In this document: positions 156 through 50,872 of the stretch, piece after piece
How positions within the stretch are numbered: position 1 is the first letter of the stretch
Layout: each line of letters begins with the position of its first letter
NCBI GenBank assembly: GCA_002245135.1
Contig: NGBS01001163.1
Span: 124,001 to 188,000, forward strand
DNA length: 64,000 nt
Direction of reading: 5' to 3'
Source: Proteromonas lacertae
Lineage: Eukaryota
The notes under the pieces: generated by a model
Seen by the model: the letters and a program-made list of their open reading frames with translations, nothing else
What the model was told of the DNA's origin: nothing
Databases searched by the model: none
Program-made: the position numbers and the translations under genes

Positions 156-3100
156 TTATTTAGCAGGAGATCTTGGTGGTGATGCAGTTTTAACTGATGA
201 ACTTCTAGAATGGGATTTAGGTGAATTACTGTTATTCTCTTCTTTATTCATCTCTTTTATTGATTTATTAATCTCTTTCAAAAAATCTTCATAAAAGAAT
301 TTTTCATTTTTACTCCATTTAATAAAGAAACCACTTTTATCATTATCTGATAATTCAGGAAATACAGACGACATTATTAAATCATATGTTCCATATTCTA
401 CATAATTCAAATTATCTCCATCATATCTATGAAACAGACTACAAATACTCTTCTGTAAATCAGGAATTAGAATTATATCACTTACTAAACTATCCATATT
501 TCGACGAATTTGAGTTCTTTCAGTAACTACAAATTCTTCTTTTTCTTTTTCAACTTTTCCAGATCTTCTACCTGAATATACTTTTGATTGTCTAAGAGGA
601 TGTTTTGGAGGTTTTGGTTCTGCACCATAAGCTGAATGACTCTCTGGTGGTGTTGGTTTCATAAAACTCTTCCTCTTGTTCTTTGGCATTGTAAATGACT
701 TGGTATATTTAACATAAGGTGATTCAGTTACTGACATTCGTGGTTTTGATACAAGAATACTACTTCTCGTGGAATTATTATTGTTATTATTATAATCACT
801 ATCATCATCATCACTTTTATATGTTGCCACAGATGATGAAGTATTTAATCTATTTCGTTTATAATAATCATCACTACTATTTTCTTCATTTTCATCATCT
901 TCATCCTCATGAATTGTTCCAAAACGATAAGAATCTAATTCACTTTCAGCTCTTATAACAGAATCTAACGCTGGAGATTTTCGAAGTATATCAGGCTTCT
1001 TATTTCCACCCTCTTCTTTTTCTTCTTCAACAATTTTCAAATCTTCATCAGATGGATTGGATGGATAGTATTTCTCTATTTCTTCTCTTCCCTCAAATAA
1101 CTGTGGATCATTTGAAGCTGTTAAATAAGGAGCATAATATGCATCTCTTTGAACCCATATTGGAGCTAATTCATTCTCAATAGCGATTTGTAAATCTTCT
1201 TTATTTAAATGTTGGATTTTTGAATTTACATCTAACGATTCTAATTTCAAGTCTTTTATATCAGGTAGTCTAAATGCAGAATCTGGAGCTATCCATAAAG
1301 GATTTTCACCCAAATCTTCAGCTTCTTCTGGTTGACCTTGACTTTCTTTAATTATTTTCTGTTCGAGATATCTCTTTGCTATTCCAGCCTTCATATTTTT
1401 CAATTTATCTAAATCACTTTCTTCCTCTCCTTTCTTCTTGTTTCTATTTCGACGAGATTTCTTTTTTCCTGATTTCTTTATCCATGAACTCCATACTTCA
1501 ATAGCTGCTCTTGGATGATCAGGTGAATAATCTTGATCATTATAAGTGACATAAACGGAAACAATTCCATCACTGGATTTCTTAAAAGCAGGAAATTTGA
1601 TTTGTAGTTTATTTTCACCAATATAATCAGGAATAAAACTAAATTCTTCCATACTTGTCTGATGTAATAATCTAACATGTAAATCATGAGTAAATTCGAC
1701 ATTCTTTGTTTCGATTGTTAACAGAAATTTACCATAAAGTGGACCATCTCTTGGAGCAACATTCCACACTAATGGAATCTCCTTATACAAATTATATTCT
1801 TTTAAAGGATAGAGAGGATCAATTTGATATAATGTTGATCCACCATATAAACAAACATCAACAGTCACTTTAAACTCTCTTGTTTTATTCTTACAATCAA
1901 TAAATGAAGGAACATTACATTGAATTGTTCCATCTTTCATATAAGTACCAAAGACTCTTCTATCACCTCCCCATTCACTATTAAACGATATTATTATTCT
2001 ACCAGTATCAGCAAAATTCTCTCCTTTTAATGTCATTACTGTTCCACCACATAATGGACCCCACAATGGAACAATCTCAGTAACAACAGGTAATACTTTA
2101 AACAAAACACTTTTACCATTTTCAGTATAATGCTCTTTATCCATTGTCACTTCTATAATACATTTTTCAGTGAATATTGATGGTGATTTACATTCTAATT
2201 CAGTATCTGATATTAGTTTAGCTTCTACATCAATTAACTCGCCTTTCTTTTCACCATCTTGTGGAATAAACCTAACAACTGGAATTATTTTACTATAGAA
2301 ATTAGCTCCTTTTACTATCACAATATCATTAAATGGACCACTCAACTGTAATTCTTTTACAACAGGTAAATCATATATCATAAATTCACAACTTTCTATA
2401 CCATTAACATAATTACAATCCCAATTTCTGCCATTTAAACTAACTTCAACAACTGCTTTTCCAGAAGATGGGAATTGTGAGGTTGTAAATACAATAAAAC
2501 CATTCTCAAAATTACCTGGAACAATTACTGGATCAAATTCAGAATTTTTAATAACTAATCTTACAACACACATTCCTGTATTTACTAAACCACTTCCTTT
2601 GATATATACTTTAGTATCACCAGTGATTAATCCAAACTTTGGTTCTATCGATTCTAATGTTAAAGGACCATAAACATCAATACACTTAGGTTCAGTATAA
2701 TAATGACCATTTAAAGAAAGTCTAAACTGCCAACTACCTAATTCATTAAATCTTGGAGTTTTAAATTGAACAATTCCACTTTTAACAATACCATGAGTTA
2801 ATAAAGAATGTACATTTGGTTCTGGACTTGTCATTAAGATTGATACTTTACCCATATCTTTCAAATTACCTCCAATTATTGATATTACTTCATTACCAGT
2901 AAAATGAAAAGCTGATGGTTTCATTTTCTTTATTACAGGATTTCCAACAATTGAGAAATATGTATCACATAATGAAAAATGTTGCTTATTATCAATAGAA
3001 ACATAGAATTTAATTTTACCTGGTGGTAATGTATCTGGAGTATTGATTAATATGTTATTCTCACATGACAATAATGTCATTTGTTCTTGAATAACATCCC

Positions 3101-5790
3101 ATAATTCTTTTAAACATACACGAATATTGATATTACTATAATCATTTCCAACACTTGTATAGAAATTATCTAAATATATTTGCCAATTGAATGCTACTGT
3201 TGGTTGTGTTGGTATAATCGTTTCAATACCACTTTCATGTACAATTTTAATATCACATTGTCCTGGAAATATAATATCATTTGCTACTAAATTAATAGTA
3301 GAAGTGTAGAAGTTCATTGCATATTGAGGAACACAACTGATTGAAAATGGTGGTTTCTATTTAACAGGAATTATATTAATAGAGATATATTATACAAAAT
3401 AAAAAAAGAGTAGTGGTTTAATCATGTAAAACTGTTGACCATTCAATGAAACTGATACTGTTACATATCCTGGTTGTTTTATTGCTGGCACTATTTATAT
3501 AATAATAACAATAATAATATATACTAACACATCTTATTTCTCTTAAAGATATAAACTTTACATCTAAGATAAACTCATCATCAGTAAATGTAAATACTCT
3601 CACTTTAATTGCATTTGTATCAATAAATCCTTTTCCAAAAATAGATATTTCAGTTCCCCCTGATAATGGTCCAGATTGAGGAAATATGTTATCGCATTTA
3701 GGTATCTGATAATATTTATAAAATATATTCGTTTCACAAAAACAATTATCTCCAAACCCAACATCAAGTCTAGCTTGTTGTGAATCAGAATGGCATGATG
3801 GTGTCACTGTGTAAAAACGATTATCGATTATTTCCACTGGAGTTATTAACTGTACATCTGCAAATCTTTCACTTCTCCATGACCATTTTACAGATATTCT
3901 TTTATTCTGTTCAATTAACTGTTGAACAAATGATTCTGTATTACCAAATATCAATTCTATTCTATCATTACCAACTAAATATCCCCATTCTGGAATAACT
4001 CCTAATAGATCTGGAACAAAGTAATAATTCACTTTAATAAATGATCCTGTATCATATGAAAAGTCAAAATTATTGTATGAGAAATCAACAATAGTGTCAA
4101 CTCCATTTACCGGACAATTATCAAGTTTTGGAAGTTTGCATTCTAATTCATAAGATGCATCAGGATCTTCTAAGTCCTGATATCTCCACGCTTCCTGTAT
4201 AAATGTTCTACCATTCATTTGAAATCTAATATAATACTCATTTGTTTCAATCACAGTATCTTTAAGAAGAATTGAAAATGGAATATTTCCACTGGATGGT
4301 ATGTTTTTTATACTGCAATTCACAACTGGTGGTGATATAAAATATCTAAAAACATTCACTCCTTCGCTCACAAATGTATCTGAATTAAGTGCAACATATA
4401 CTTGAGTTTCTTCTATTTTAGCATATTGAAATGTTTGTAATGCTAAATTTGACGGAGTTCTTAACTCTAATTCACCATTTTCATTCAATATTGCTGGTGA
4501 TATTCCTACTGTTTTAGTTGAACTAGTCATTTTACCATCTTTATCTTTTGACATTGTATTTACTACAAATTTCACTTTTATATCACCAGTATCTTGGAAA
4601 TAAGTATGTTGTATTTCTCTTTTAACTAATTGTGTTTGATTGTTATTATTATTATCTGATTCATGTAATAGTAATTTCATTTTCATTGGTGTATTTCCTT
4701 GCGCAACTCCATATTCTGGGAATATTCTTTCAATTATTGGAGGATAATAAACAATAAACTGTAGAATCTGCTTGGAATAAGAATCGCCATTATTCATTGA
4801 TATTTTTACATCATAAATACCATCTCTTCTCAACTATTTTAATATAATATATAAGCATAATACTTTCCCCAATGTGAATTTAATAGTATTTTCATCAGTT
4901 CTCCTTCCTATTACATTAAATACCTCTTTATCATCCTTATAAAAACCTATTATAATGTGATTAGATTTGAATATATTAATGCCAGTTAATTTAAAATCAT
5001 TATATCCATCAATTGGTTTACATCCTGGAGTGATTCTTCTAAATATTGGTTCATCATAGATCAATAAACTATCCATTGTATTTTCTTTATGTTCAGAATA
5101 AAGAAATCCATTCATTGTAATAGTAACAAAACACTTTCCTGTATATTCTAATGGAGGTTTACAGGTTAATACAATTTTATCATTCTTTGTTCTCTTTTGT
5201 TCTGCTGGGCTTATCACTTCTTCACCTGTTTCAAATTTGAATTTTACTCTGAAAATGACTTGTGCATCTCTTGCTGAATCTATACATTGATTTAAGCATA
5301 TATCAGGTATATCTTTCCATTTCTTTTGCTCTTCAGTTAGCATTTTTCTCCAATTGTCACACATTATGGATATTTCTAAGTCTCTCTCAAACGTTTCAGA
5401 TATAGCTGGAGGCATTACATTTGTTACATAGAATTCAGGCTAACATAAACTATAATAATATAATATACGAAATAATGGAATATATGTTGGTTATAAGTAT
5501 AATATCCATCCACAAATGCTTCTATAGTAGCATCACATTCATAATCGAAAGGTGGAATTTCACAAACCATTCTATAATCATTCTCAGATTTTGCTGTTGT
5601 GTATTTGATAGTGTTTTCGTGTTGAAATTTTACTCTAATTGACTTATTTGGAGGGAAGTTGTTTCCATATATGTATAAAGTTATACCACCAGCCATAGGT
5701 CCACATGATGGTTGAAAGTATGTTATTTCAGGTAATTCTATAGAAAATATGATAATTAATAATACTCTTTTCTATCTCTGTTGTACTCAT
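156..5790 (-). CDS. Large multi-IPT/TIG-domain protein (~1,800 aa, 6 exons), no signal peptide or TM; low-complexity C-terminal region with a degenerate EF-hand-like end
   Basis: ORFs 5424-5696, 4834-5415, 3418-4833 and 156-3317 join in frame through five short GT-AG introns from ATG 5790 (MSTTEIEK|KLPEITYFQPSCGPMAGG). Repeated IPT signature P-x-x-G-P-x-x-G-G-T-x-I-x-I-x-G-x-x-F ... V-x-V-S-L-N-G (e.g. IFPQSGPLSGGTEISIFGKGF, IVPLWGPLCGGTVMTLKGENF). Confidence 0.85.
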
Positions 5791-9068: not shown

Positions 9069-10363
9069 CTAATCACCTTCATTAATACAGCAAGAATGTA
9101 TAAATGTCGCTCCAGTCTCCATATAATCAGCTTTAGTCATTTTCTTTACATTACTAAAGTTAGATAATATTCTCTCACCCTTCCAAGTTGAAATTATTCT
9201 ATTATCAATCGATCTAACAGTGATTGGTGGAGCAGTAGGTGCAACCATAACCATTTCATTAGTCAATCTCTCAGCAAAATTAGGAAACAATGTAGTACCT
9301 CCTGCTAATATCAAATTACCAAATAATTCAGATCTAATCGCAGTATCACATCTATAAATAGAATTAACTATTCTTTTATGTAAAGGATCAACTGATGTTT
9401 GTGGTTCACTTTGTGCATATAAAAATTCTTCCTTAGCTTTTTGTAATTCCTCATCTGTTAGATTTTCCTCCACTTTTCCTTCTTCATCTTCTTCAGTATC
9501 GTCTTTCATTTGTTCTACTTTAATATCCTCCTGTACATGAGCATTTGGATCATCATAAAGAGTTGGATTGAAAATCAATTCTGATGAATTAATTCTTTCT
9601 TGGTTTAAGGCTAATAATGTGCCATCTGGTAAAGAATAAGATTCTTCTTTACTTGCTGAACTTTCATATTCTTGTAATTCTCTTTCAAAATCAAGGGCAA
9701 CATATCCATACAACTCTTTACATTTTTGAACATATAATCGATGTGTTGGTTCTGTGATATTATCATATAATCGATAGGATAATTGATGTGCTAATTCAGC
9801 TGTTATTGTGGAACCACCAAAATTGGTTACATCATAACCATCTATTGGAACACCATCCCAGAAACAACAAATCTGAGACAAATCTTCACCTACATCAACC
9901 ACACAGCCTGTAAGGAATCCTGTACCATATAATGATAATAGTGGTTGAGGATATATTGATACTTGAGGGATATTGTAATATTCGAACAAGATATCCACTA
10001 ATTTTTCTCTACTTACTGGATCGCAGAATAGTCTTTCACTAACAATGAAATTATATTCTTCTGTTGATACTTCTAATAATGAATCAACGATATAATCAAT
10101 CACTTTTTCAAAAGAATCATCACTACTAATAACTCCGTTTGTAACAGGTCTATCAATTGGATATTTTTCACAATGGGGAAATACATTATCTCCTACAACA
10201 GTATCATCAGAAGTAGTTGAAAAAGCAACTAAAGTAGGAACAATGAATCTTGGAGCAACATCTGTGGAGAAACCAACCTTTGTAAGTCCACTCCCAATAT
10301 CAAATAAAAGATCTATGATATAAATTTATATTAACAATAGCTTATACATGGTTTATCAGACAT
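9069..10363 (-). CDS. Divergent actin-related protein; 2 exons
   Basis: MSDKP|YLLFDIGSGLTKVGF...APRFIVPTLV; LSLYGTGFLTGCVVDVG; YSLPDG; LFGNLILAGGTTLFPNFAERL. These are actin-fold motifs, with an acidic insertion. Confidence 0.9.
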
Positions 10364-10447
10364 TTTCAAAAAAAGCGTTTTTGAATGAAAAAAACTCTCC
10401 CCAAAAACATTGAAAAAAGTACCCACAATTCAAAACGATTGATTTTT

Positions 10448-13400
10448 ATGTTTCAGTTATACACACTAGTTTTGCTAATAGTAAGTGTTACTTCATTAAA
10501 AGTAGGTTATATTTACCAGGATAGCTCAGATGGAGATAAAAACATCGAAATTATCACAGATTACAGTAAATATCTACTAAATAATACAGGCTATGAAATA
10601 CAAGTAGAGGAATGTAAATATTCTGGTAGTATAAACTTGGAAAAGGTGAATACATGTATGTACAAATACGAAGAAGATAATATAAATCTCATATTTGCTG
10701 AATGTAAGGCACACATATATATGGTAAGTGAGGAATACTTTAACAGAACAAACGCCCTTATTTGGTGCATCACAACTGTAGCTACTGGAAGATGTATGTC
10801 TCACTATGTCATAGGTAATTCAATGATTCCCACTTTGAAGACTTTACCATTCCTTATAGGTGATTATGCTCAAGCAACAGGTTATATAGGTGGAGGCGCA
10901 AATGTTGATGTTGATAACTTCTATTTTCAGCATCTAAGTGTGGCAAGTGATAGTGTAGGAGAAAATTTAATATATTCTGCTGTAAGAACATTTACATCTA
11001 CAGTAACTGTTGATAATGTGAAAGAATACGTTGAATTTATCAAAAATAGTAAAAATGATAAAACAACCACTTATGTTTATAACAACGATCCAACTATAGT
11101 AAAAGCTCTTATTGATGAATTATACTCAAATAATTTAAACACAACTTTTAATCCAATTATCTTTCTATCAGGTGGTATAACAACAGATGATATTCGAACA
11201 GCATTAGGAAGTGATATAGCTAATAATTTAAACAATATATACATGTCAGGATATGTAATTAAAGCTAATACAACCGATAATGACTTATTGAAAAACACCT
11301 ATCATAAAGCTGGAAGTGATTATTTTAATGAAGCATATATGATGGGAATAACAAAGATGTTATGTTATGCAATACAGAATTCTTATTCTACTAATCCATA
11401 TGTATTATTAACGACAATATATGATCGAATATTTGAATATCCAGGTGGACAAATATCACTATTAGCAAACCACTATACAACCACTACATATTATGGTTTG
11501 AAATTTGATAAAAATGGAGAAGTTGATTTGAAATATACTATTCCGATAATGATGAGATTTGAACCAAATGGTACATTAGATGATGTATTAACAGAGACCT
11601 GTAATTTTACACTAAATCCACAAACTGGATTATTCAATAAACCATATATAAATATACTGATAGTTCAAAATGTAAAAGGAGATTTTAAATTTGCCCAATT
11701 GATCGTAAGAAAGATGTTAATAGAATATATTAATGAAATCAACCTAAAAGGAGGAATATTGAATAAAGAATTGCAATTAGTATATGAGAATATGGGAGAT
11801 ATGTATGATAATGATGATGATGAGAGTAGTATAGAAGAAACAATATATAATATATTAAACAAAACTGAATTATATAATATAAACACAGTATTTCTATTCT
11901 CATCACCTGAAGTAAGACAAAAAATAACAAGTGAAGTATATAAAGAGAATGAAGATATATTGTTTTTATATTTTGGTCCTGTAGAAGGTGAGGAATGTAT
12001 TGATAATGTGATTTATACTCAACCAATATCATCTGCTTATATACAAACTCTTGTTACTCATTTAGCATCTTTACCTACAAGAGAAAAGATATTTATAGTG
12101 TCAAGTAAATATCGATTTGCTAATTTCACTACTAGGAATTTAATTAACTGAATTAAGTGCTTTAGACTATACTGAAAATGACTTACCATTTTCTGATTTG
12201 ATTAGTTTCAATGAGAGTTATATTAAAGGAATAGTTGAACATGATGTAAAACACTTTTTACCTGATGGAGGTATTATTATATTAACATGCGAAGATGCAT
12301 TTCAAAATGTATTATTTAAGGCGTTTAAAAATGCAAATATGACATCTGCAAATGGTTATTCAATTATTTCGATGAATTTAAACTCCATTACTGTGAAAAT
12401 AATTGGATATGATGTATTTGACAATCATAAGTATTTAGTTCATTATAAAGAAGGACTTCAACATAATTATAATGGTAATTTCTTAGTTCAATTTCATGAA
12501 GAAATGAATATGATGTTAAATGATTATTATCCAATATCAGGTACAATGGGAATATTGTATAATATCTATCAACAATGGGAACAAGCTGTCAAGCTTTGTG
12601 GATATACAAATCCAAAACAGTATAAAGAGTATATATACCACCAACCAATACCAGATCCAGCAGCAGGTCCATATGAAATATATTACAATGGCTATGCTCA
12701 AGCACAATTAAGAATTGTCCAAGTCACAAGTGATGGTGATTATAATATGATAATGGAAGATTATTTTGCTCGACAACCTCAAACCTATCAAAGTGGCAAA
12801 CAAACTTGTGATTGGCATGATCCGACAACCGAACCAGGTGGACCAATCAAAAGTTATATAATCGGTGTATTGTATGATGTAAGAACAACAAATGGAGTGA
12901 AAAGATATAATGAATTACGATTAATAACAGAAATGATTAATCAAGATGGTGGTATAAATGGAAGGCAGTTAGTTGTGAATCAAACGAATTATGATGATGA
13001 TTATAATCATATCATAACTGCAGCTAATCAATTGATTAATGATCCTGATTTCTTATGCTTCTTTGGTACACAAAGTGAAGAAGAAAGAAAAACAATTGAA
13101 CCATTATTAGAAGAGAAAGATAAGTTGCTGTTCGTATTTTTAGATTCTAATGGTGAAGTTACTTACAAGAATATTATACAAATGAGCTTTATTACACATC
13201 AATATTATACATATCAAATGTATTGGTTATTTGAACATTTTCAGAAATATGTAATTGTTCATTCATCTGATAATACTACTGTAGAAAGAGTAAAGTTTAT
13301 AAAAAGCTTGAGTGAGTTTGTAGAAAGACCAGATAATGGTGTTTATGTATTTGATGGTGGTAATGCTACTAATATAACCAATGAAATAAAAGATAAATAT

Positions 13401-16400
13401 CTAGATGATAATGCATGTATAGTAACATTGCTAGGAAGTTATACAAATGATTTTTTGTTTTATTACAATGAAAGTGGATTAACTCCAACTACTATTCCTT
13501 TATTAATAACTGATTTTACAATTAGAATGTTGAACGATGAGAATGAATTATTATTTTCTAATCACTATGGAGGTGAATCGTTTTATCGTAGAAGCAAATA
13601 TCCAGCAAATGTTGAACTATTTAATTATATTCAAACTTATAAAGGTAATCCAGATGATAATGTCAATCAGAATATGATAGTTATGTATGATGCAATCCAT
13701 ATATTAGTAACTGCTTTGGAAGGAATTGCTTCTACAGATTCACAGACGTTAAAAGATGCTTTATATGGTGTAAGATTGGATATGCCAAATGGAAAAATGG
13801 GAATTATTAATAACAACTATGCAACTACTCATTTCTTAATTGTTAAAATTAAAGATGATAAAGATGTTATTGAAGTGATGGATTTACCATTTCCTATTGT
13901 TCCACATCCTTGGTATTTCTTAAATAATAATCAAGACTATTATACTACTGATTTCTCAATAAGTGGAGGAGATAAAGATAATGTAAAAGAAAGTAAAGAT
14001 TATTATGGAATAGCCTTCTTCTTAGATATAAAAGATGCAAATAATAGAGGATTTTTAGATTTTATATTAGTGAATCTATATATAGAAACAGCTAATTATA
14101 ATGGTGGAATAAAAAATAAATATGTCTATTCTGAAGTTTATCAATGTCCAACAGATGATGGTGAAGCTGCTAAAAGGTTAATGATATTATATAGAAGGAA
14201 ATTTAAGATTATAATAGGTGGTTGTTCAGTTCATACAAGAGATATAATGACTGAATCCTTAGAAGCTTTAGATTTCATATTACTTTACACTGGTCCAAAC
14301 TCAGGTCAAAAATGTTCTAAGAATATAATATCACTTTCTACACATCCTACACAAGATGTTTTACCATCAGCATTACATTTATTATATAGAGAAACAAGAT
14401 CAATATCATTTATATATTCAAATGAAGTGGATTATGATGGACAGGTCAAAATGATTGAAAGTATATTTGAAGCATTTAATGTTCAATTTGCTGATAAGAA
14501 AAATATTGATCCAACTAGTACTTCTACTATAAGTGTTGATATTGAATCAGCTTTATATGCATTACATCAAAGAATGCCAAATGGTGGTGCAATTCTATTA
14601 TTACTCTCTAACTCAGCAGTTGAACAATTCTTAGAAATATTTTACAAGTATTTTTCTGAATCATTAAATTTGCAGGATTCTAATGAAATAGCTAAAATCT
14701 TTACACTTTATATTATTGATAATACCCATACAGAATATAATAGACTTTATGCTGATGGTCATTATGTATATTCACCCTATAATATTGATGCAAGTAATCA
14801 AGTATCAACTGATTTTGAATCTACATTTCAATCTATCGCAGATAGACAACATGCTACATATCAAGATGCATTATTGTCAAATGCTATTCAAATAATGTTA
14901 ACTACATTAGAAGGTGCTACATCATCTGAATTTGAGGTAATTCGTAAACAGTTATATGAAACAGAAGTTGAAACTGTATTAGGAACAACAAAGATTGATT
15001 CTGGCAATATAGTGATTCAGAATATGAATTTTGCTCAGATAATTAATGGAATTGTTACACATGTTGATGTATTACAGTCGAACCTACCTGGTGAAGCTTT
15101 TAGAGTTGAATTTAATCGAAAGAAATATACTGTTTGTAATTGGTTATATAATATTGAATATTTAGAAGTTAAAACAATCAATATTGGCTTGATATTACCA
15201 TCCAAAGTAATCTACAGAAAAGAAGGAATTGAGTTTTATCAAGGTATTTTTACAGCAATAGAATATACCAACAGAAACAACGGAATTAAGGGAAAATATA
15301 TTGTACCAATAACAATGGTTGATGGTGATGATCCAGAATATGCTAAGAATATAATGAGGGAATATATTAAAGAATATAACATATTCATCTTCTTAGGAGG
15401 TTGGACAACTGAAATAAGAGATGCTTTACATGAAGTTGCATTAAATACAAGTAGTATATTATTCTATCCCAATGATTATGAAGGTGAAGAATGTCATTAT
15501 AATGGATATTATTTAGGTTTATCTTATTCATCCTTCTTTACATTCCCAACAATTATAAGAGGTGTAGATGAAGGTAATACTATATTATTATATAGTAACA
15601 CATATTATTCAACTTATTTTGCCCAACATCTTACCGAAGATTTAGCTGTATTTGATGTTAAATTGCTATTATCTTTACAAATACCTGTAGAGAATGAAGA
15701 TATGAGTGAAGTAGTATCACTTATTAGTAGAGTAGCTCCAAGGAATGGTATTATATTGAACTTATTAGATGGTAATTCAAAAACATCACTTGTTATAATG
15801 ATGAAACAGAATGGTTTAGTACCTCCAAAATATTACTCTTATAATTTGAATTTTGACGATTTAACTGTGATGGAAGTGGAAGATTCAATAGGTGGTAATT
15901 ATATATTTGATTCATATGACAGTAGTAAATTAGATGATTCTACATTAGCATTATCAAAATCATTTGATAAAGAGTTCTTATCTTATTGGACATATCTAAA
16001 GGCTACTAATAAAGTGATTGGTAGAGGAATTACAGCTGTTGAAATTATAGCAAATGTAGGAAATCAATGTGAGAATTTTACTTATAAAGACTTTAGAGAA
16101 AATTTATATACAACTAAAACAAAGACGATATTAGGGGAATTGACGTTTTCAGAGAATAATCAATTACCAAACCTTGTATCAGTAGAATCAAAAATATATA
16201 ATCCAAATGATGGTAGTATTGATAGTAAAATGTTATATAGAACCCAAGTATCTATTATATCTCGGCCATATGGTAATATATTAAGAAATGAACCAGTAAA
16301 AAGATGTAATTTAAGACATACGAGTGATATAGAAACTATAAGTGTTAAATATATTGCGTTAATCTTCTCCGTATCAGGTTCTGAAAGAATAACACATGAA

Positions 16401-19400
16401 AATGCAATTTATGGAGCTTTAACTGCATTACATTACTTATATGATAATGAAATGGGTGAATGATAATATATTATTAATGAAATTAGTTGATTATGGAAGT
16501 GATAATGAAGTATTAGCAGAAAAATTGAAAGAATTAGAAAATGATGATTCAATTGTTGCTTATTTAGGATGTACAAGTCCAACATGTAAACGAATGGTAG
16601 AACAAGCTGCTAATAAGAATAATAAACTATTCTATTATCCAAGAATAACAGCAGGACAAGAATGTGATTATAATACAATCACTACCAGCATGGTTGCAAA
16701 TCAATATGTTACTCGATTTTTAGAATATTTAATTTCTACTAAATATGAGTCTTATATTTATATTATTGCTGAAGAAACTACAGCTTGTACAAACTTGATG
16801 AGTATATTTGAAGATGCTGCTCAAGGTTTATTCACTACGAAAGGTAGGTTTATAATCTCAGATTCAAATCCATTAACTATCAATGTAGTTGAGAATATAA
16901 CTAATGTTTACTTACCAGATGGTGGTATAATAATTACAATATTTAGTTTACCTGGTTATTTAAAGAAGTTTTTAGAATATCAATATAAAATGCATATAGA
17001 CCATACAAAATGGGGTATAGCTGATGCATTATTAGAAATTGAAGACACAAACGGTATTCCCAATGAACATTTAACTGATTTATTAAAATATAGTCGTTAT
17101 TTTATGGATATAAATACAGAAAATAACCAAAAATTTGGTCAAAGATATTACCATTATACAGCCCAACAGAAAATCACCAGTTTAGCAGAAGCATCCTATT
17201 CAGGAATATTATTATATGCCAAAGCAGCACAAAAGGCCGAATCCTTTGATACTGATTTAATACGATCAGCTTCACATGGTATAAGTGTCGATTCAGGTAG
17301 TGGAACTGTACAAATTGCTGATAATAATTTCGTTGATTCTCCATTCTTTGTGGCACAGTTCCATAGTGATGGTAGTTATAGTACAATCTATAGTAAATAT
17401 GATGTACAAACACCTTCCCCTTGGAGTTGGAATATTGATTCAACTTATGGATTAATGTGTTCATTCTTAACAGAGAAGAAGCCACAGTATGAAGTTCCAG
17501 TGAAAAGAACAGTTTTAATTGCGTCTTTAACAGGTGTTAATGCGATTGATACTCAAGGATTAGTTGATATTTACCAAATGGCTATTAATGATATAAATAA
17601 TAATAATGGTGGAATTGGTGGTTATACTATCAAACCAGATGTATTTGATGTTCAATCCAATACTGAATATTGTAAAATAGAGATTCCTAAATATATGAAA
17701 CAATTCGAGCCATTAGTTATATTTGCAGCTATTACATCTGAATGTTATGAAGCAGTATATCAACAAATGGAAATACAACCAACGCTCTATGTTGAATTGA
17801 ATAAAAAACCTCAGGATTTCTGTAATAGATATGTATTAGTTGCTGTAGAACATTCTACATTATATAATCCAATTATAGATGTTATTAGAAATAGGTTTTA
17901 TGATAATATATTGATAGTTACCTCTACTGGAAGTAATAATAATATTGATGAGAGTGAAAATCAACATGATACTTCATTATATATTCAATCATATTTCAAG
18001 AAATTTTATGTCGATTTTGTTTCTTACAATACTAAAGAGGTAACAGAAAGTGAGTTATTGGTGAAGTTACAGGAATATGATGAATTAGTGAAAGAGAAAG
18101 GATGTATATTGTATTTTGGACATGTTGATTCATTCAAAGTGTTTATGAATACATTACAATCAAAAGGATATACTGAACCTAAACATCATGTGATAGTAAT
18201 GGAGAATAGTAATTTATTCAGAAGTTTAGATCATTATGGTTATGAAGAAGTAGAATTCTACCAATCAGATGAAGAAAGTGATGTAAATAAACAATTCAAA
18301 GAGAAAATCTATCAAAGAATCGATACTACCACTTACATTAGTGATTTAATGATTAGAACTTACAGTGCAATAAACCTATGGGCAAAAGCAATTAATACAT
18401 TACCATTAGAAGATAAGAGTGGTTTTATGGTTGCTGATGTTGATGTTAAGAATGTAAGAGCAGCAATATTAACAGTTGAAGATACATATCCAGAAGGTTT
18501 AGTGTATTTCGGTAAAAATCAATATTTAGCTCGTATTCCTAGATTGACAAAGTTAAATCAAGATAAATCCACTACATTGGTATATACATCAATGTATGCG
18601 AGATTACCAGAAGCATGGGCAAATACAGCAGATGGTAAGTTTAGAAAATGTGATTTTACCAATGAAGATATTGAAGAAGATAAAGTAGTAAATACTTATC
18701 TAATTGCTATTATATTATCACTTTCTGGTAAAGATAGAGAGAAAGAAACTCCAATATTACAATCTGTATTAACAGCAATTGATAGAATTAACTTAGATTC
18801 ATTATTATTAGATAATTATATAAATTATGACTTATACAATGCTGAATCGAATGATACTAATTATATTAAATATGCTAAAGAGATAGTTGAAAATAAGAAA
18901 TATGATTATATATTTGGAGGATATAATCCTGAGACTTTAATAGAAATTGGTCATTTATTTGATAATACCAAACAGCTATTCTTCTTCTTAGGTAAATCAT
19001 TAGGTACAAATTGTTATAGTAATACAATAATCTCTTATTTACATCCTTATCAAATAGCTGATGCTACAATTCGAAGATTATTAGAATTAAGTTCAAGTGC
19101 ATTTTTAATAAAATCAAAAGATACTTATTCTAATATGATTGCTCAATTAATAACAGATAAAATGCAGAATCTAATTATTACATCGAATGGTAATGTTGAA
19201 TATAGTGGTGGTGGAACTACAGGCAATAAGATAATTAACGATATACAAAGAGCTTTACCTAATGGAGGTTATATATTAACAGTAATGGATATTGAAGCAG
19301 ACATTATTGATTTTTATAAATACTTCTGTAAATCATCATTGAAATATCCAACTTACACTATTATCAATGTGATATTGAATGAAAATACTATTCAGAAATT

Positions 19401-22203
19401 AGATAAATCATGTTTGAATGGCTTTATTATCATTGGATCTTATTTTGAATCAATTGGTAATGAAGATATGACTGATTTAGCAATTCCAGCAGAAGCTCCA
19501 ACTTATAATACATATTTCCATATTCGTATAGGTAGTATTTATGCTACAAGTGAATATGAATCAGCTTACTCAGCCTTTGAACTGTGGAAAAACATTGTAA
19601 GAAAAGTCAATTCATTTGAATATGATGATATTAAATACTTATATCATTATTATGTAGATGTACCATCTGACCAATTAGAAGTTAATCCTAATAATTATTT
19701 CAACAGAAGAGTATTTGCTGGTACAATAGATCAGAATGGTAATATCAGAGTAAATTGGGGACCAACAGTTACATTTAAACCACAGATATATGATCAATAT
19801 AATGATAGTGAAATAGGATATATATGTGATTTTAGTGATGAAAATAAAGGTGAGCATTACAATACAAATCCAATTATATTATCGTTTATTCATGAGAAAG
19901 ACTTAGGTGGAAAAACTGAGAAATATAATGCATTACTCCAAGATATGGTGATTAATGAAATTAACTCATTAGGTGGAATATTAGGAAGACAATTAGCAGC
20001 TAATCACACTTGGTTAACTATAAATGATGCTTATAGAAATGTAAGAGCAATAGTTGAAACAGGAAGATCAGAAACAATATTAGGAGGAATAACTGCTGAA
20101 TGTAGAAATGAAGTGGTTAGATATTTACAATCTCATGATTTATTATATTTCTTTACTGGGAGAGATGATGGAACTCAATGTGATGAAAATACAATAACTT
20201 CTGGTTTGTCAATGAATCAAAAAGTAGATGCGTTATATTTATATATGACTACATTGGAATTAACCTATGTATATTTTGTAGGAAGTGATAGGAATTCAAC
20301 ATTAACAGAATATCATTTATTTGAAGAGAAATTCAATGGTTCAAAGTTTACTTTCTTAGGAACATCTTTCTTTTCACCATTCAATAAACAAGTAACAACT
20401 AATGTAATGAATAAAATAGATGCATTATTTGAAGAAGTAGATAGAATAGCATTAATCAATCTATTTATTGCTAATGAGAATAGTGAATTTTTACCATATT
20501 TAACTAGTAGTCATAACTTTGCATCAATGACAAATATATTTTTAAAATATGATCCTTCTGATATTTCATCAAAGTATAGTTCAGTATTAGCTGGTTCTTA
20601 TGTTGTATCTTCATATGCACCAAGTGTATCTAATACAGCATCAGGCACATTCCAATATTTAACAACATCAGAATATCAAAATGCAATTACACTCTCTGAA
20701 TTATATGAAACAAGTTATAGTACAATCTATATGTGGAAAGCAGCTGTAGAATATTCAAAGACATATGCTTCTAGTGAATGGCCTAATAATGAGTATATTC
20801 GATTGAGTTTAAAGTATGTTACATATGATGGTCCTAGTGGTAGTAGTTCAATCATTAATAATAACCATGCAAAGAAGAATGTTTATATATTTAGATTATT
20901 AGATGGTGATATTACACAAGTTTACCCAAAACAAGGAATTGAATATACAACAGAAGGTAAAATGACATATAGAAGTGAATCAGATTGTTCATTTTCTAAA
21001 AATATAAAGATTTATGAATTAAATAATGTTACTCAATTAGCAACAATTGTTTTAGATATAATTAATACATTGTTATGTCTATTTATTGCATTAATTGTCT
21101 TTATATTTAGACATACGAAAGTTATTAAAAGTGCCAGTCCTTTGTTCTTATATTATACATTAGTTTCATTGATATTCTTAGCAGCAATTGGTAATGTATT
21201 CCCATCTTTACCAGATACTCAATTTGTATGTGAAATGAGAATATGGGGCTTAGCCATAACTATAGATTTTGTATTTAGTATAATGTTTTGTAAAGCTTGG
21301 AGAATTCATAAATTATTCAACAATAAAGAATTAGCAAGAGTAAAAGTATCAAATACTATGTTATTGAAGATGATTGGTATTATTTTAATGGGACAAATCA
21401 TTTATTTAATCATTTGGACTGTTGTTAAACCATCAAAACCAATATTATCATTCTCTACAGGTTATTCTACCTATTTAGATGATGTATTTATTCAAGAATG
21501 TACTTCAAATATTATATTTGTTGTTATACAATTAGTTGCAATTGCTTTAATATTCTTATGGGGTGCAAGACTGGCATGGAGTGTGAGAAAAGCATCAGCT
21601 GAATTTAATGAATCAATGTCTTTAATGTCAACTATTGGATTAATGTTAATTATGGGTGTGATATTAGTTCCTTTGGATTATTTAATGGCTTCAGAACCTG
21701 ATACATTATCAATATTAAGAAGTATGGGTATTGAAATAGGCGTATTTGCTATTATTATATTACAATTTGGAAGTAAGATAATGTATATTTGGAATGTTGA
21801 ATTAACTACTACTTTTGGATCTTCTTCTTTACTTGGTGGAAGTAGCAGTATGAATAGTTTACATCAAAAGTCACAAGCAATGAAACGAGCTGCAGCTCGA
21901 GGTAGATTTGCAGTTAAACCGAATTTAATGGAGTGTTTACCCATCACATTAGCAACAATATCTGAAGCTGAGAGATTCTTCGATGAAAGAGCTGGAAGAA
22001 CTAATTCTGTTGGAACACCTATGAGTTTTAGTCGTAAACAGTCATCTTTAGCTCATCCTAGTGGAAGACCCAGTGCTAGACCAAGTGCAAGAATATCAAA
22101 CGCATCTGCAGCTAATCCTAACAATGTTGCTATAAATACAGCCGTTGGTGTATTAAGTCCTATTACACCAATAAGAGAGAGAGCAGAATCTGGTAAACAC
22201 TAA
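10448..22203 (+). CDS. Giant class C (GABA-B-like, 7tm_3) GPCR with signal peptide and nine tandem periplasmic-binding-protein type 1 (UrtA/AmiC-like) domains; two apparent single-base frameshifts (~12145, ~16455)
   Basis: Signal peptide MFQLYTLVLLIVSVTS. ~390-aa repeats with IN-x-x-GGI-x-GR-x-L, FLGGWT and LFYPNDYEGEEC motifs. The 7TM region (~21030-21790) has the class C hallmarks KVIKSASPLF, CEMRIW, KAWRIHKLFNN and EFNES. Three consecutive ORFs break in the middle of domains. Confidence 0.88.
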
Positions 22204-30359: not shown

Positions 30360-33300
30360 TTAATTAGATTCTTCTTTAATTGGATCAGGATCTATTTCAT
30401 TATGTATGGGTGATGTTAAAGGTTCTAATCTTACAGAGTGAACTGATGCGTTACTTACTTTCACAGCTGATCTATTAGTGTTTTCCATTACATTAGGCAT
30501 TACAAATTTATCTTCTTCATCTGTTGTATCACCTCCACTATCTTCTACTTCCTTCTTTTCTTCGTCCTTATTATCTTCTTTATTTTCATTATTTTCACTC
30601 TCTTCATTATTATTTTCATTATTTTCATTCTCTTCGTTATTATCTTCTTCATTTTCACCATTTTTCTCTTCTTTATTCTCTTCATTCTCATTCTCAGTTT
30701 CATTTCCTTCTTTATTCTCATTTTCATAGTCTGGTCTTTCAAATTCTTCATATTTAACTGGTGGTAGTTCAATCTTTTCATCTTCTTTTTCTTCCTCTTC
30801 TTCTTCATCCTCTTCAATTTCTCCTTCCTCTTTTTCATCATCTGCAACTTCTCCTTCTTCTTTCTTTTCTTCTTCTACTTTTTTCTCTTCATTTTCCTCC
30901 TTCTTTTCTCCCTCATCTTCTTTCTTTTCTTCTCCAACTGGAGTAGGATTAACATTGTTATTTTCTTCATTATCTTTTTTTATTACAACTCCTACATTAT
31001 CAGCATCAACAGGTTCTTTCTCATTAATTGGAACAATTTTATACGTTTGACCTTTTCCATAATTCGTTAATATCATTTTTGAGAAGAAAAGAGGTAAAGC
31101 AAAAACAAAATACATCAACCCCATCCACCATATTGAAACAACCATTCGACTAAATCTACCAACTACATCACAAATTAATACTTCTACTACCGAATATACA
31201 ATCCTGCTTAATGAATTACAACCAATTACATCACCTAATTCTATAATTAATGTTCCTAGTGTATCACTTAATTGATCAATTGTAGAATTTACTATTTTAA
31301 CTGTTTCATCTCCAAGTTCAATACTTCCAAGTATACCATCTTCTCCATTAATCATATCTTTAGCAAAATCAGTTACAGTCTCAGCTGCTTTACCAGTAAT
31401 ACCTCTTATTGGATTTTCTTCACCTTGTAATTTACATGTTCCTAATATATTACCCAACAAAGGAGTAATTTGTATATCCATTTTTAATTCACTTCCCATT
31501 AAATCAAGTGAATATGTACAATTTGGTTTATTATCATATACACCACCAATCATATTACAGATTGATGGTTCAACATCTTCTACCATAATATATACTTCAT
31601 TTCCTAAACCATCACCAATATCTCCAATTAATAATAATAAAGCCATTACTATGGAGGTTATAACCATACAAGTTGAACAACAACAACAACCACAACAATT
31701 AATACAACACCAACTACATTTCATACAACATTTCCATGTAAAGAAAACACAGAAAAGAAGTAATATTTGTATTATAGCAACGAAAAATCTATTTATATTA
31801 TTCATAAAAATTATACGGTATTATAGCAATATAGTCCAATATATAATGAATGTAAGTTTTTATATACCATATAGCCTTATCCAAATACATTCCAACAATC
31901 GGAATCTCATCTTGAAAACTTATATCTAAGGGATCATCAGCCATTAATCCTTTAAAATTCATGCCTTCTAATATTAATCTAATTGATCTTTCAATACAAC
32001 CATATGAAATACACATTTCACCATTATTTCTCTCTTCCAACATCGAATTTGACATTATATAACCTTCATCATCTTTAATTGAATCAGATAATAATTTACC
32101 AGCAAATGTAAGGTAGTCTAAGGAATTACCTTCTATATGATCAACATCCCATACTTTATTAACATCACGTTTAATATCAGTCCAATCATCAGTTTGGAAG
32201 TATTTTATTGTATTATTATGTGTTTTATTAGGTGATATTACTCTATATATATTAATAGAAATATATTATATTATACGATGCATAAACGATGTTTAATTGA
32301 TCTTCAACAGCTTTAAATGCATTATCCAATTTACTCTGTTTCGTTAATCTCTGTAATTCTGATTCATTAAACTTTGATAATACATCATACACAGGTTGTT
32401 CAAGGAAATTACTAACATTATTTATAAAATTGGTAAATCCATCTTTATTATCATAAGCATTACACATACCTAACTTCATTTCATCACTTAATGATGTTAC
32501 ACTTTCGTCAATTTCAGTGCAATTTACTCCCATCAATTCTGTTGGACTTCCTAATACTGAAGACATACTGTTAAAATCATTAACATATTCATCCATATTA
32601 ATTTTATTTATTTCTTTTTTAGCCTTTGCAATATCACCAACAGAACTGTCAACTTCATCTAATCCAAAATCACCACTGGCAGAATCATTAACTGCACTTG
32701 TCTATAGGAAAATAAGAATATATAAAATACAAATTGATCAATTGTGGTTGGTAATTCTTCATACAACTTATTAATAGATTTAAGTGCAGTCTATTAATAA
32801 TAAATAAAATATATATTATACACAATGTGAGAAATAACCAGTTGCTATTTCATCTCCATTTTCTATATATTTATCATATGCTTCCATATTACTAAAATAA
32901 CTTTTGGAGTTAATATAACAGTTTTGATTAACAATATTATCTATAACATTCGATTTATAGCTACTGAATGAAGAATCATAACCACTTGGAAAATCAAATG
33001 TCTTTGGTGAATCATTACAATCTCCATCACCATCACAATCTCTATCATCTAAACATCTCTTGGCTTGATTAAGACTACAATATCCATATCCCACAAAACT
33101 CATATTACAATAACTATTTACTGATGGATCTGCTGATGGAGTTGTTGTTGTTGTTGTTGTATCCTTTGCATCAGGAGGTGAACATCTCTGATTAGTACTA
33201 TTTAAACCTTGAGTGAATATTTTATTCAAATTACTTGACTGTTTATATAAATCATTAGTATGTATGCCACATATTGTAGCTATGACACTTTCTTTGCTTT

Positions 33301-35877
33301 TATAAAATGAAGCTAACTGTTTAAAATTCTGTACATTTTGTACAATACTTTCGAAATTCTCAACATTTTTAAATATTCCATAGGTTATAGCATTAGTTGT
33401 TTTTTCCAACTATAAATAAATAAATAAATATTATATAAATACATCACTAAGTAAACTACCCATTGCACCACTTTGAAGTTCAGTAACATTTTTCTATTAT
33501 TAATAACAACAAAAATATACTAAATTATTATTCAAATCTCTTATTTTGTCATTTAGATTTAATTTACTTAGATCATCAGTTTTATTCTTAATTTCATCAA
33601 TTTGATCTAAAACATCATCAATTTTTTCCACTAACTCTCCACTAACTTCATCCAAATTACTAAAATCACCAAAACCTCCAATTAGACTATTTAGATCAAT
33701 AAAGTCTTCAGATATTTCATCAATATATTTCAATGTTTTCTAAATATCATATATAACAAAATATACATTTAATGGATCAATTAAATCTTGAACGTCTTTC
33801 AATCTACCTATATCTTCACTTAATTTTGTGTAATTATAACTAGTGATGTCATTAACAGAACTATTCAACCCCACTAAACTAGTGTTTAATCTTTCAAAAG
33901 CAGCTGTGTCTAAACCATTACTAATACTTTTCATCTATGCATAAAGATCATAATATTGAATATACTGTTTTAAAAGTTTCTGTAACATTATAATTACCAA
34001 GCGCTGTTTCTATTTGCTTAAGTGTATCAACATCTATATCACTAGAATTGACTTTAATTTCGAGTTCTTGTGTATGTCCACAGAATATCTGAAACTGTGA
34101 TTCTTTTAGATAAATTTTATGTATAGCTTTCTGTACACTAATCAATGTTTCATTTGTCTGACTTATTTTCTATAATAAACATAATCATAATATAATCATA
34201 CCCAACTTGATAACTTTTCATTATAAGGCGTCATACTATCTTCAATCTCTTTAGGTAATTCAAATAATGTTAAATCAAAGAATTTATTCACTTCTTTTAT
34301 TTTATCATTATCATTACATAATTGTTCTATTGAACTGTTAATTTTTGTTTGAATATCTATAATTTTATATCTATCTTCTGTCAAATTACTTGATTGTGTT
34401 TTCAATTGATTAAAATTACTAGACACTAGTTGTAAATCATCTTTAAAATCATCATCAATTGCATTTAATAATCCAGTAAGTTCATTAATTGAATCAGTTA
34501 GATTATTTACATCTGGTAAGCCATTCAATTTTGTAGTAACATCTATTATTATATAAATAACTATATTATACTTCCCATAGATTTTAATAATCCATTCAAT
34601 GGATCATTCACTAAATAATATATAAAAATAATAATAAATACTTTTATGTAATAATTTGTCAATAGCAGTAATACCAACTCCTCCAACTAATGAAGAAACA
34701 AGATTAGCAGTAGGATCTTTAATATCACTAACCAATAAAACAACAGCATCAACAACTTTTGTAATTTTCATCACACTATCCACCAAACCATTAACCGAAA
34801 TAGTGTAAGACCAACAAACAATGGAGAAAATGAAAAACATTAAAGCATATAATGCTAAACATCCTTTTAAAGTCCACTTCACTTTCTTACTGTAACTATA
34901 CACAATAATATTAACAACAAATATATATACTTATTCTTTCTAGCACTTGGATAACAGCAACAACATGTAACCCAACATTTATAACATGGATGTTTATATT
35001 TTCTCTTTGGCTTTGCTACTCTCTTTTCTTTTTCAGGTTTTTCAGGCATTGGATCTTCTTTTACTATCTCTACTGTTTCAACTGCTGGTTGTGCTGCTGA
35101 TGTAAGTGCTGGAGGTGGTTCTTGTTGATTGATTGGATTTCCATTTGGATCAACTGTTAAAGGTAACACACATTCTTTATCAACGGATTTATCAGATTTA
35201 CTATTGTGACTTTCAGATTTCTTTTCATTATCTTTACCACTTTTTGATTTATTGTCTTTATCTTTTCCAACATGTTTTAAACTACCATCTACAACTTCAT
35301 AAGTTAATTTGTCTCTGTTTATCTTAAAGCAACATGGACAACAGCATCCTAGACAACTTCCTAAACAATAAATAAAACACCAACAGCAGAAAAATAACAT
35401 AATTAATAAATGTGCAACAATAAATATTACATAAAACTAAATGAATTACAAAATAACAATATCATACAAAAATAAGGTAATATGGTGATGTCTTATCAAT
35501 ATTTAAGAACATTAATTCTAAAAGTGGAAGAATATCGAAGTTTGAGATATATTTTATAAAATCTGAGATATCTTTATGAAATTCAAGTTCTAACTCACCA
35601 TCATCATTTTCTACTTTTTTCTAAAAGTATATATATGCCATTACTATACAAATTCTGCAATTGGTTCATATTTTGTAAGATCTCTCGAAAAAAATCCTGG
35701 CCAGACGTAAGTACTGGATCTCTAAAAAATAATATAACACATCCATACAATATAGGTCCCTTTACAAGTCTCATCACACTTGATTTTGTTTTCATCGCAG
35801 TAGACATCTGTAGCCATGCAAACAGGAAAAATAACAATAAATAAATAAAATAATAAAAGACGAGAACAACTATTCAT
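30360..35877 (-). CDS. Prominin-like multi-pass membrane glycoprotein, copy A (many short introns)
   Basis: Signal peptide MNSCSRLLLFYLFIVIFPVCMA. TM segments flanked by Cys clusters (FFCCWC...CCCPCC), large helical and Cys-containing extracellular loops, last loop GCNSLSRI...ICD...SIWW before a final TM, acidic cytoplasmic tail. The gene itself is well supported; the family label is less certain. Confidence 0.65.
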
Positions 35878-50324: not shown

Positions 50325-50872
50325 TTTTAGAATAAAAGCTTGAATTCTAGTTTGAAACAATTTTTAGAATTATTTATTAAAATAAAGCAGTATAATAGTT
50401 TATGTTATTTTTATATAGTTGGAGAAACTATAAATATAAGATATAGATGTTTGTGTATATGTAATATTATTCTCTTTTAATGATAAGAAATTATAACACA
50501 CGTTAGGTTATGCTAATTTTGTATTTAACTTGCCTAGAATAATTTTCATGAAATTAATTATACACTCAACCCATTATAACCATTTATAACTTGATAGTGT
50601 AGTTGAATGAGAAAATTATTTAATATAAGTTCAGCATTACACTTCAATAAAATAACTGGTAGAGTTTCAATAAGAAAACATATTTATGAATGAAATCTAA
50701 ACACATACATACACACTAAGGAATTACAATAACAATATCACACTTCCAATTATTCTGATATGTTTATAATCACTCAAATATGATCATTTCAATATAACCA
50801 ATAAAATTTCTTTCAGAAAACCGAAGATCTAAAACCGATCTTGATAGTTTTAAAATTTTTGAAAAATTACAG

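What the first reader, a model, noticed from the sequence alone, without database searches (positions are those of the whole stretch)
10448..22203. Class C GPCR carrying nine tandem bacterial UrtA/AmiC-like sensor domains
Seen: signal peptide, then nine ~385-400 aa repeats starting near 10496, 11648, 12855, 14001, 15177, 16350, 17506, 18697 and 19873, then one 7TM domain and a Ser/Arg-rich tail. Known: class C GPCRs (mGluR, CaSR, GABA-B) normally carry a single Venus-flytrap (PBP type 1) domain. Inference: a nine-flytrap receptor is an architecture I do not recognise as described. The repeats are strongly diverged from each other, so it could be a multi-ligand nutrient-sensing antenna, or only the membrane-proximal domain signals while the others capture ligand.
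Basis: partly seen in the sequence, partly recalled or inferred. Interest (0 to 1): 0.92.

Follow-up and report, generated by a model that had tools for sequence, protein, structure and literature searches.

The report
Nine-flytrap receptor from urea-binding domains
This eukaryotic gene encodes a GABA-B-type membrane receptor whose outer part is a chain of nine copies of a bacterial urea-binding domain; the copies have lost the urea-binding residues, the fifth copy likely still senses a small positively charged nitrogen compound, and relatives in chytrid fungi and other microbes keep the urea site and are predicted to be urea receptors.

Summary
Confirmed. One gene, broken here by two single-base insertions, encodes a signal peptide, nine UrtA-type flytrap domains, a class C 7TM and a 133-aa tail. 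An intact 3,886-aa ortholog (80% identical) carries all nine repeats plus the 7TM in one reading frame. Each repeat is orthologous position by position across relatives down to about 45% identity. The receptor belongs to a wider family: 25 of the 150 best hits have two or more UrtA-like repeats plus a 7TM. Named members occur in chytrids and Capsaspora, and an unnamed GC-rich relative has at least nine repeats. Many GC-rich relatives keep the full eight-residue urea pocket in distal repeats while the membrane-proximal repeat is degenerate. Here no repeat keeps it (0-3 of 8). Only repeat 5 keeps a conserved cleft, rewired to acidic residues (8 of 16 versus 0 of 144 elsewhere). Best reading: one sensing repeat, probably for a cationic nitrogen compound, with the other repeats acting as stalk and relay. 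This is a new variant of a known kind. No description turned up in the papers searched. Ligand, dimerisation and G-protein coupling are untested.

The parts
10448..10495 (+). Predicted signal peptide (16 aa, hydrophobic core)
   Evidence: Hydropathy; orthologs P0008 and P0005 start with an equivalent segment
10496..11647 (+). R1, most diverged UrtA-like repeat
   Evidence: Profile and hhalign match to R2-R9; low-confidence model whose top four PDB hits are UrtA proteins
11648..12854 (+). R2 UrtA-like repeat, with a one-base insertion at about 12149
12855..14000 (+). R3 UrtA-like repeat (lacks both conserved Cys)
14001..15176 (+). R4 UrtA-like repeat
15177..16349 (+). R5 UrtA-like repeat with the only conserved cleft (W120, T122, Y141, D144, E146, D246, N274 in UrtA numbering); predicted ligand site
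16350..17505 (+). R6 UrtA-like repeat, with a one-base insertion in 16452-16455
17506..18696 (+). R7 UrtA-like repeat
18697..19872 (+). R8 UrtA-like repeat
19873..21012 (+). R9 membrane-proximal repeat, most conserved unit (91% to P0008); degenerate urea pocket
21013..21804 (+). Class C (7tm_3, GABA-B-like) seven-helix domain
   Evidence: Pfam E 2e-37; GABA-B2 best PDB sequence hit, E 1.7e-12; seven helices
21805..22203 (+). Ser/Arg/Ala-rich cytoplasmic tail and stop codon
   Evidence: 80% identical in P0008

Best explanation
This is one gene for a class C (GABA-B-like) seven-helix receptor whose outer part is nine tandem copies of the bacterial urea-binding protein UrtA; none of the nine keeps the urea-binding residues, and repeat 5 likely remains the ligand site, predicted to bind a small cationic nitrogen compound (ammonium, amine or guanidinium type), while the other repeats likely act as a stiff stalk that would relay its closure to the membrane domain and a G protein. 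SHOWN: architecture, single ORF in orthologs, UrtA ancestry, loss of the urea pocket, selective conservation of the R5 cleft, a conservation gradient towards the membrane. INFERRED: the two breaks are assembly indels; the ancestor was a urea sensor with a degenerate proximal repeat; R5's ligand chemistry (urea's N-H acceptors Q144 and N246 became D and D/E, and the carbonyl-binding Y190 is lost); the relay; G-protein coupling.
For: P0008 and P0009 are intact 3,886-aa ORFs on separate contigs, and P0008 is 80% identical over the full length. P0005 spans R1-R9 and P0001 spans R4-7TM without breaks. A third one-base slip lies in an A-run of another gene at about 60693. Repeats cluster strictly by position: 8 changes, the minimum, against 32 in shuffles (quick tree). 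UrtA pocket residues come from PMC10392092. Window repeats match 0-3 of 8. P0038 keeps 8 of 8 in five of nine repeats; 6 of 9 chytrid-type relatives tested keep 8 of 8 distally, and proximal repeats score 0-2 of 8. At position 5 the residues are Y141 14/17, D144 12/17, E146 15/17 and D/E246 18/29; the triple-acid pattern occurs in 8 of 16 position-5 repeats against 0 of 144 at other positions. An independent MAFFT alignment gives the same register. Identity to P0008 rises from 65% (R1) to 91% (R9). The R8-R9-7TM model has pTM 0.82, suggesting defined packing. Both Cys of a conserved pair are kept in 170 of 177 domains. The TM3 Lys (40/43) and the acidic ICL3/TM6 residue (33/34) are kept.
Against: No binding or signalling data exist. 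The R5 p-value (0.007) is one of nine tests, and the rows are related, so the Fisher value is inflated. W120 is kept in only 6 of 16 position-5 rows. The register at Y190 differs by one residue between aligners: phmmer puts a Tyr there in the window copy, though the position is variable among orthologs either way. R9 has its own conserved R144/D146 pair in close orthologs and may bind something else. A relay across four domains is unproven, and the predicted R9-7TM geometry differs from GABA-B (rmsd about 25 A). TM7 has Ser where Pro is commonest among relatives. No G-alpha could be checked in this genome. None of 104 bacterial-type UrtA fusions shows R5's acidic pattern, so no natural ligand precedent was found.
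Confidence: 0.5

Rival explanations
1. Multi-ligand antenna: several repeats have each evolved their own pocket, so one receptor integrates several gut or environmental metabolites.
For: All nine repeats are kept distinct and in order, without homogenisation. R9 keeps R144/D146 in 6 of 6 close orthologs, and R2 keeps P/Y/E/E/N in 3 of 3.
Against: Pocket positions in R1, R6, R7 and R8 are at or below background conservation. The R9 pattern dissolves in deeper paralogs (R144 8/25).
Confidence: 0.22
2. The repeats no longer bind small molecules. They form a long, glycosylated stalk for adhesion or for sensing macromolecules or mechanical contact, coupled to a 7TM as in adhesion GPCRs.
For: Urea pocket lost in all nine repeats. 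23 N-glycosylation sequons. The family is large and fast-evolving in the AT-rich lineage.
Against: A buried cleft motif is selectively kept in R5 across paralogs at 20-40% identity, which a pure stalk would not need.
Confidence: 0.15
3. The family is real, but this copy is a recent pseudogene with two genuine frameshifts.
For: Two frame-breaking insertions in 11.7 kb. No reads were available to check them.
Against: No other in-frame stops in 11.7 kb. Branch lengths are similar to the intact P0008. Another gene in the window has a one-base slip in an A-run, as expected of indel-prone assembly.
Confidence: 0.13

Closest known systems
GABA-B receptor subunits / class C GPCRs
   Same: 7tm_3 domain (best PDB hit GABA-B2); type I flytrap ectodomain joined to the 7TM with no NCD3G domain; TM3-ECL2 Cys pair and TM3 Lys/acidic pair kept.
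   Different: Nine flytraps instead of one. They derive from UrtA rather than the ANF-type module: no animal class C flytrap appears in the profile search at E 0.001. The predicted flytrap-7TM geometry differs.
UrtA urea ABC-transporter binding protein (8HIC, 7S6E, 7S6F, 8TG1; TIGR03407)
   Same: Fold (TM-score 0.81, rmsd 3.6 A), including the C-terminal Cys-bearing extension.
   Different: Fused in tandem to a GPCR; 34-120 bits per repeat against a cut-off of 493; 0-3 of 8 pocket residues.
Non-metazoan class C GPCRs with swapped binding-protein ectodomains (Bmp, OpuAC, SBP_bac_1, PBP_like_2; PMC3251606, PMC5168858, PMC3971589, passages read)
   Same: Recruitment of a bacterial solute-binding domain onto 7tm_3.
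   Different: The passages read name no UrtA-type domain and no long tandem array. Capsaspora CAOG_05347, a family member here, is in the PMC3251606 sequence file, but 'urea' does not occur in that main text.
Trypanosome receptor adenylate cyclases (two flytraps; PMC6027212 passages) and Bordetella BvgS (two flytraps; recalled)
   Same: Tandem flytrap domains on one signalling chain.
   Different: Two domains, not nine; the output is a cyclase or kinase, not a 7TM.
Chytrid and other GC-rich UrtA-7TM proteins (KAJ3101170.1, P0213-P0221, P0038, P0060), database entries named 'hypothetical', 'periplasmic binding protein domain-containing' or 'urea transport system substrate-binding protein', or unnamed
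   Same: Tandem UrtA repeats plus 7tm_3, with a degenerate proximal repeat.
   Different: Most keep a complete urea pocket distally. The chytrid 7TMs are a separate lineage (one clade for all UrtA-bearing 7TMs rejected, p-AU 0.001).

Membership tests
Class C GPCR | 7tm_3 domain with seven helices | tested here: met
   E 2e-37, 130 bits against a cut-off of 33.5; seven helices
Class C GPCR | TM3 Cys and ECL2 Cys; TM3 Lys and acidic residue at ICL3/TM6 (their role as an ionic lock is recalled) | tested here: met
   C 43/43 and 38/38; K 40/43; E or D 33/34 in alignment A3; aligned to GABA-B2
Class C GPCR | TM7 Pro-Lys motif (recalled) | tested here: inconclusive
   Lys kept; Pro is Ser in the window copy, Pro in 15 family rows
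Class C GPCR | Single ANF-type Venus flytrap | tested here: not met
   Nine UrtA-type repeats; ANF_receptor at most 20.4 bits per repeat, cut-off 25.4
Class C GPCR | Obligate dimer | not tested
Class C GPCR | Coupling to a heterotrimeric G protein | not testable with these tools
   No genome held
UrtA urea-binding protein | Type I two-lobed fold with the UrtA C-terminal extension | tested here: met
   TM 0.81 to 8HIC for the R8-R9 model; Cys pair in 8 of 9 repeats
UrtA urea-binding protein | W120, S122, Y141, Q144, E146, Y190, N246, S274 | tested here: not met
   0-3 of 8 per repeat; residues from PMC10392092
UrtA urea-binding protein | TIGR03407 cut-off per domain; urtBCDE transporter context | tested here: not met
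   34-120 bits against 493; neighbours are an actin-related gene and a rhodanese
AmiC amide receptor | Closest solved relative of the repeats | tested here: not met
   AmiC E 4e-25 against UrtA E 2.6e-59

The most novel reading that the evidence does not exclude
Microbial eukaryotes have an unrecognised family of urea-sensing class C GPCRs built from bacterial UrtA, fused at least twice, with arrays of 2 to 9 or more flytraps. In this AT-rich lineage the array was reprogrammed so that a single mid-chain flytrap senses a cationic nitrogen compound and signals through four ligand-less flytraps, a long-range allosteric relay unknown in GPCRs.
Probability: 0.25. Interest if true: 0.93.

Novelty: new variant of a known kind. 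Interest (0 to 1): 0.8.

Why it matters
All characterised class C receptors carry one flytrap per chain. A conserved nine-flytrap chain shows the 7TM can be driven by a very different ectodomain, and raises a testable question about long-range allostery. The intact-pocket relatives give a direct ligand prediction, urea, for orphan GPCRs in chytrids and other microbial eukaryotes; no eukaryotic UrtA-type urea receptor turned up in the papers searched. They could be tested quickly and may serve as urea biosensor parts. The family may also explain part of a published but undiscussed expansion: one gut stramenopile has 116 class C GPCRs and 182 type I binding-protein domains, while eight Blastocystis strains have no class C GPCR and no G-alpha.

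Tried and rejected
Introns at the breaks: rejected. Splicing the first 31-nt candidate gives a stop, both candidates remove residues aligned in orthologs, and they lack the GTAT start seen in neighbouring genes' introns.

Separate genes: rejected by P0008, P0009, P0005 and P0001.

Blastocystis as the organism: my first guess, from about 28% GC and short introns (71 GTAT..AG candidates, median 33 nt). Set aside because eight Blastocystis proteomes list 0 class C GPCRs and 0 G-alpha. The organism remains undetermined.

Urea binding by this copy: rejected on pocket residues.

One origin for all UrtA-7TM fusions: rejected (p-AU 0.001; groups were named after a first quick tree had been seen). One clade for the non-chytrid members is not rejected (p 0.08) but is unstarred (89/75).

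Bacterial donor: unresolved; the window repeats are long branches.

R1 fold from four sequences: low confidence (pLDDT 44.5).

Full report
Setting. The window is an AT-rich (23-34% GC) eukaryotic sequence. Neighbours include an actin-related gene, a rhodanese, a kinase and TIG and He_PIG/PA14 surface proteins. Short introns interrupt most genes. No genome is held and the organism was not determined.

Observation. Three + strand ORFs cover 10385-22203. Read through with X at two breaks they give 3,918 aa: a hydrophobic leader, nine units of 380-402 aa at 11-22% pairwise identity, a transmembrane block and a 133-aa tail. R2-R9 hit Peripla_BP_5 and TIGR03407. R1 is recovered only by a profile of R2-R9 (E 2e-5 to 1e-7 for 3 of 3 orthologs; best of 903 decoys E 1.8) and by hhalign (97.7%). 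Its four-sequence model is poor (pLDDT 44.5), though its top four PDB hits are UrtA proteins. The 7TM is 7tm_3 (E 2e-37) with GABA-B2 as best solved relative. An R8-R9-7TM model from 53 sequences reaches pLDDT 91.7 and pTM 0.82 with seven helices. It matches UrtA at TM 0.81 and GABA-B only with a different domain geometry (rmsd about 25 A).

One gene. P0008 (3,886 aa) is 80% identical over the whole length in one ORF. P0009 is a second intact copy with 10 differences, on another contig. P0005 (R1 to part of R9, 49%) and P0001 (R4 to tail, 48%) also cross the break positions. tblastn places one extra base at 12149 and one in 16452-16455. Intron readings fail. A third one-base slip in an A-run of another gene near 60693 favours assembly error, but no reads were listed, so a recent pseudogene is not excluded.

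The repeats are UrtA-derived. A profile of eight window repeats (R2 left out, R6 partial) hits UrtA structures at E 1e-54 to 3e-59, AmiC at 2-4e-25 and LivJ-like proteins at 6e-9 or weaker. No animal class C flytrap is among the 15 hits, and the match includes UrtA's C-terminal Cys-bearing extension. In a quick tree of 45 repeats from eight proteins, every position R1-R9 is its own group (8 changes, the minimum; shuffles 32), so the array is old and not homogenised. Identity to P0008 climbs from 65% (R1) to 91% (R9), against 88% for the 7TM.

A family. Of the 150 best hits among 1.84 billion representatives, 41 have two or more UrtA-like units; 25 of these also have a 7TM, and 15 have five or more units plus a 7TM. 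Many ORFs stop at apparent introns, so counts are minima. Most are AT-rich and unnamed, and their 7TMs form one clade (100/99; five long or odd rows left out). GC-richer members are P0038 (at least nine repeats plus 7TM, unnamed), P0060, Capsaspora CAOG_05347 and Phlyctochytrium KAJ3101170.1. A further search found two-repeat receptors in Phlyctochytrium planicorne, Dinochytrium, Chytridium, Blyttiomyces and Gorgonomyces, two-repeat units fused to glutaminase, and over 100 bacterial-type UrtA-kinase, cyclase or chemoreceptor fusions. All UrtA-bearing 7TMs as one clade is rejected (p-AU 0.001). The non-chytrid ones together are not rejected (p 0.08) but are weakly supported (89/75), and one ANF-type receptor nests among them. 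So there were at least two fusions or ectodomain swaps. The donor is unresolved.

Pockets. UrtA binds urea through S122, Q144, Y190 and N246, with W120, Y141, E146 and S274 supporting (PMC10392092, passages). P0038 keeps 8 of 8 in five of nine repeats, and its two proximal repeats are degenerate. Of nine further relatives of the chytrid receptor (P0213-P0221), six keep 8 of 8 distally, one keeps the 6 positions present and two are degenerate; all nine proximal repeats score 0-2. The window's repeats score 0-3 of 8, and none of 198 AT-rich domains has more than 3 of the 5 core residues. Within orthologs, pocket positions exceed background only in R5 (0.71 versus 0.51, p 0.007, one of nine tests). 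Counting positions from the membrane across AT-rich proteins, position 5 has Y141 14/17, D144 12/17, E146 15/17 and D/E246 18/29. The triple-acid pattern occurs in 8 of 16 there and 0 of 144 elsewhere (rows are related, so the Fisher value overstates it). A separate alignment of 15 rows (three motif-less position-5 rows dropped, the window added) gives the same register, with S/T122 in 12 and no Tyr at 190. phmmer shifts that last register by one in the window copy. None of 104 bacterial-type fusions has this pattern.

Mechanism. Inferred: the ancestor was a urea receptor with binding repeats distal and a degenerate repeat at the membrane. In this lineage urea binding was lost. R5 swapped the amide acceptors for carboxylates and lost the carbonyl-binding Tyr, which suits a cationic ligand without a carbonyl, such as ammonium, an amine or guanidinium. 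Repeats abut with no long linkers, keep an internal Cys pair (170 of 177 domains; a disulfide is inferred) and pack in a defined way near the membrane, consistent with a relay. The 7TM keeps its TM3 Lys, acidic partner and Cys pair. G-protein coupling is untested. In a published table (PMC12129017, supplementary table S5 rows) Proteromonas lacertae has 116 class C GPCR, 182 type I binding-protein, 7 G-alpha and 75 RGS entries, while eight Blastocystis strains have no class C GPCR and no G-alpha. A related gut stramenopile thus has both an expansion of these domains and the machinery; whether the window's organism belongs there is an untested lead.

Literature. Eight searches aimed at this architecture found no description of tandem-UrtA or many-flytrap GPCRs. 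Passages read in PMC3251606, PMC5168858, PMC3971589, PMC8687355 and PMC10445921 show that non-animal class C receptors swap binding-protein ectodomains, but name no UrtA array. CAOG_05347 is in the PMC3251606 sequence file. Two Blastocystis genome papers have no main-text hit for GPCR or periplasmic (passages; one section). Trypanosome cyclases carry two flytraps (PMC6027212, passages); BvgS is recalled. Figures, the PMC3971589 supplement and the Proteromonas genome paper (not held) were not seen and may bear on novelty.

Verdict. A real, conserved and apparently undescribed architecture within a known receptor class: new variant, interest 0.8. Confidence is about 0.95 in the architecture and 0.5 in the single-site relay mechanism.

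Noticed in passing
P0222, P0223, P0226: Secreted-type proteins with one intact and one degenerate UrtA repeat fused to a glutaminase domain; P0224 has the same pair with an ephrin-receptor-like cysteine domain. The intact-plus-degenerate pair may be a portable urea-sensing module.
   Followed up: partly
P0038: Unnamed GC-rich protein with at least nine UrtA repeats, five with a perfect urea pocket, plus 7tm_3; the best candidate for a multivalent urea receptor.
   Followed up: partly
window 50863-61265 (+): Protein of more than 3,300 aa with He_PIG, PA14/GLEYA, one transmembrane helix and a Glu/Lys repeat tail; a one-base slip near 60693 splits it.
   Followed up: partly
window 30360-35436 and 36149-41377 (-): Tandem pair of intron-rich membrane-protein genes, 72-79% identical, with Cys-rich segments and acidic tails; no convincing Pfam family.
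   Followed up: no
window 156-5771 (-): Multi-exon gene with several IPT/TIG domains and an EF-hand-like C-terminal motif seen by eye.
   Followed up: no
P0077, P0084, P0085, P0098, P0102, P0111: A clade of 7tm_3 receptors with PA and LRR ectodomains lies near the UrtA receptors in the 7TM tree; P0154 has two LivJ-like flytraps and P0007 two PstS-like domains before 7tm_3.
   Followed up: no
window 9069-10325 (-): Divergent actin-related gene starting about 120 nt from the receptor's start on the opposite strand; possibly a shared promoter.
   Followed up: no
window 45900-47169 (+): Intron-bearing sulfatase gene, possibly of bacterial origin.
   Followed up: no
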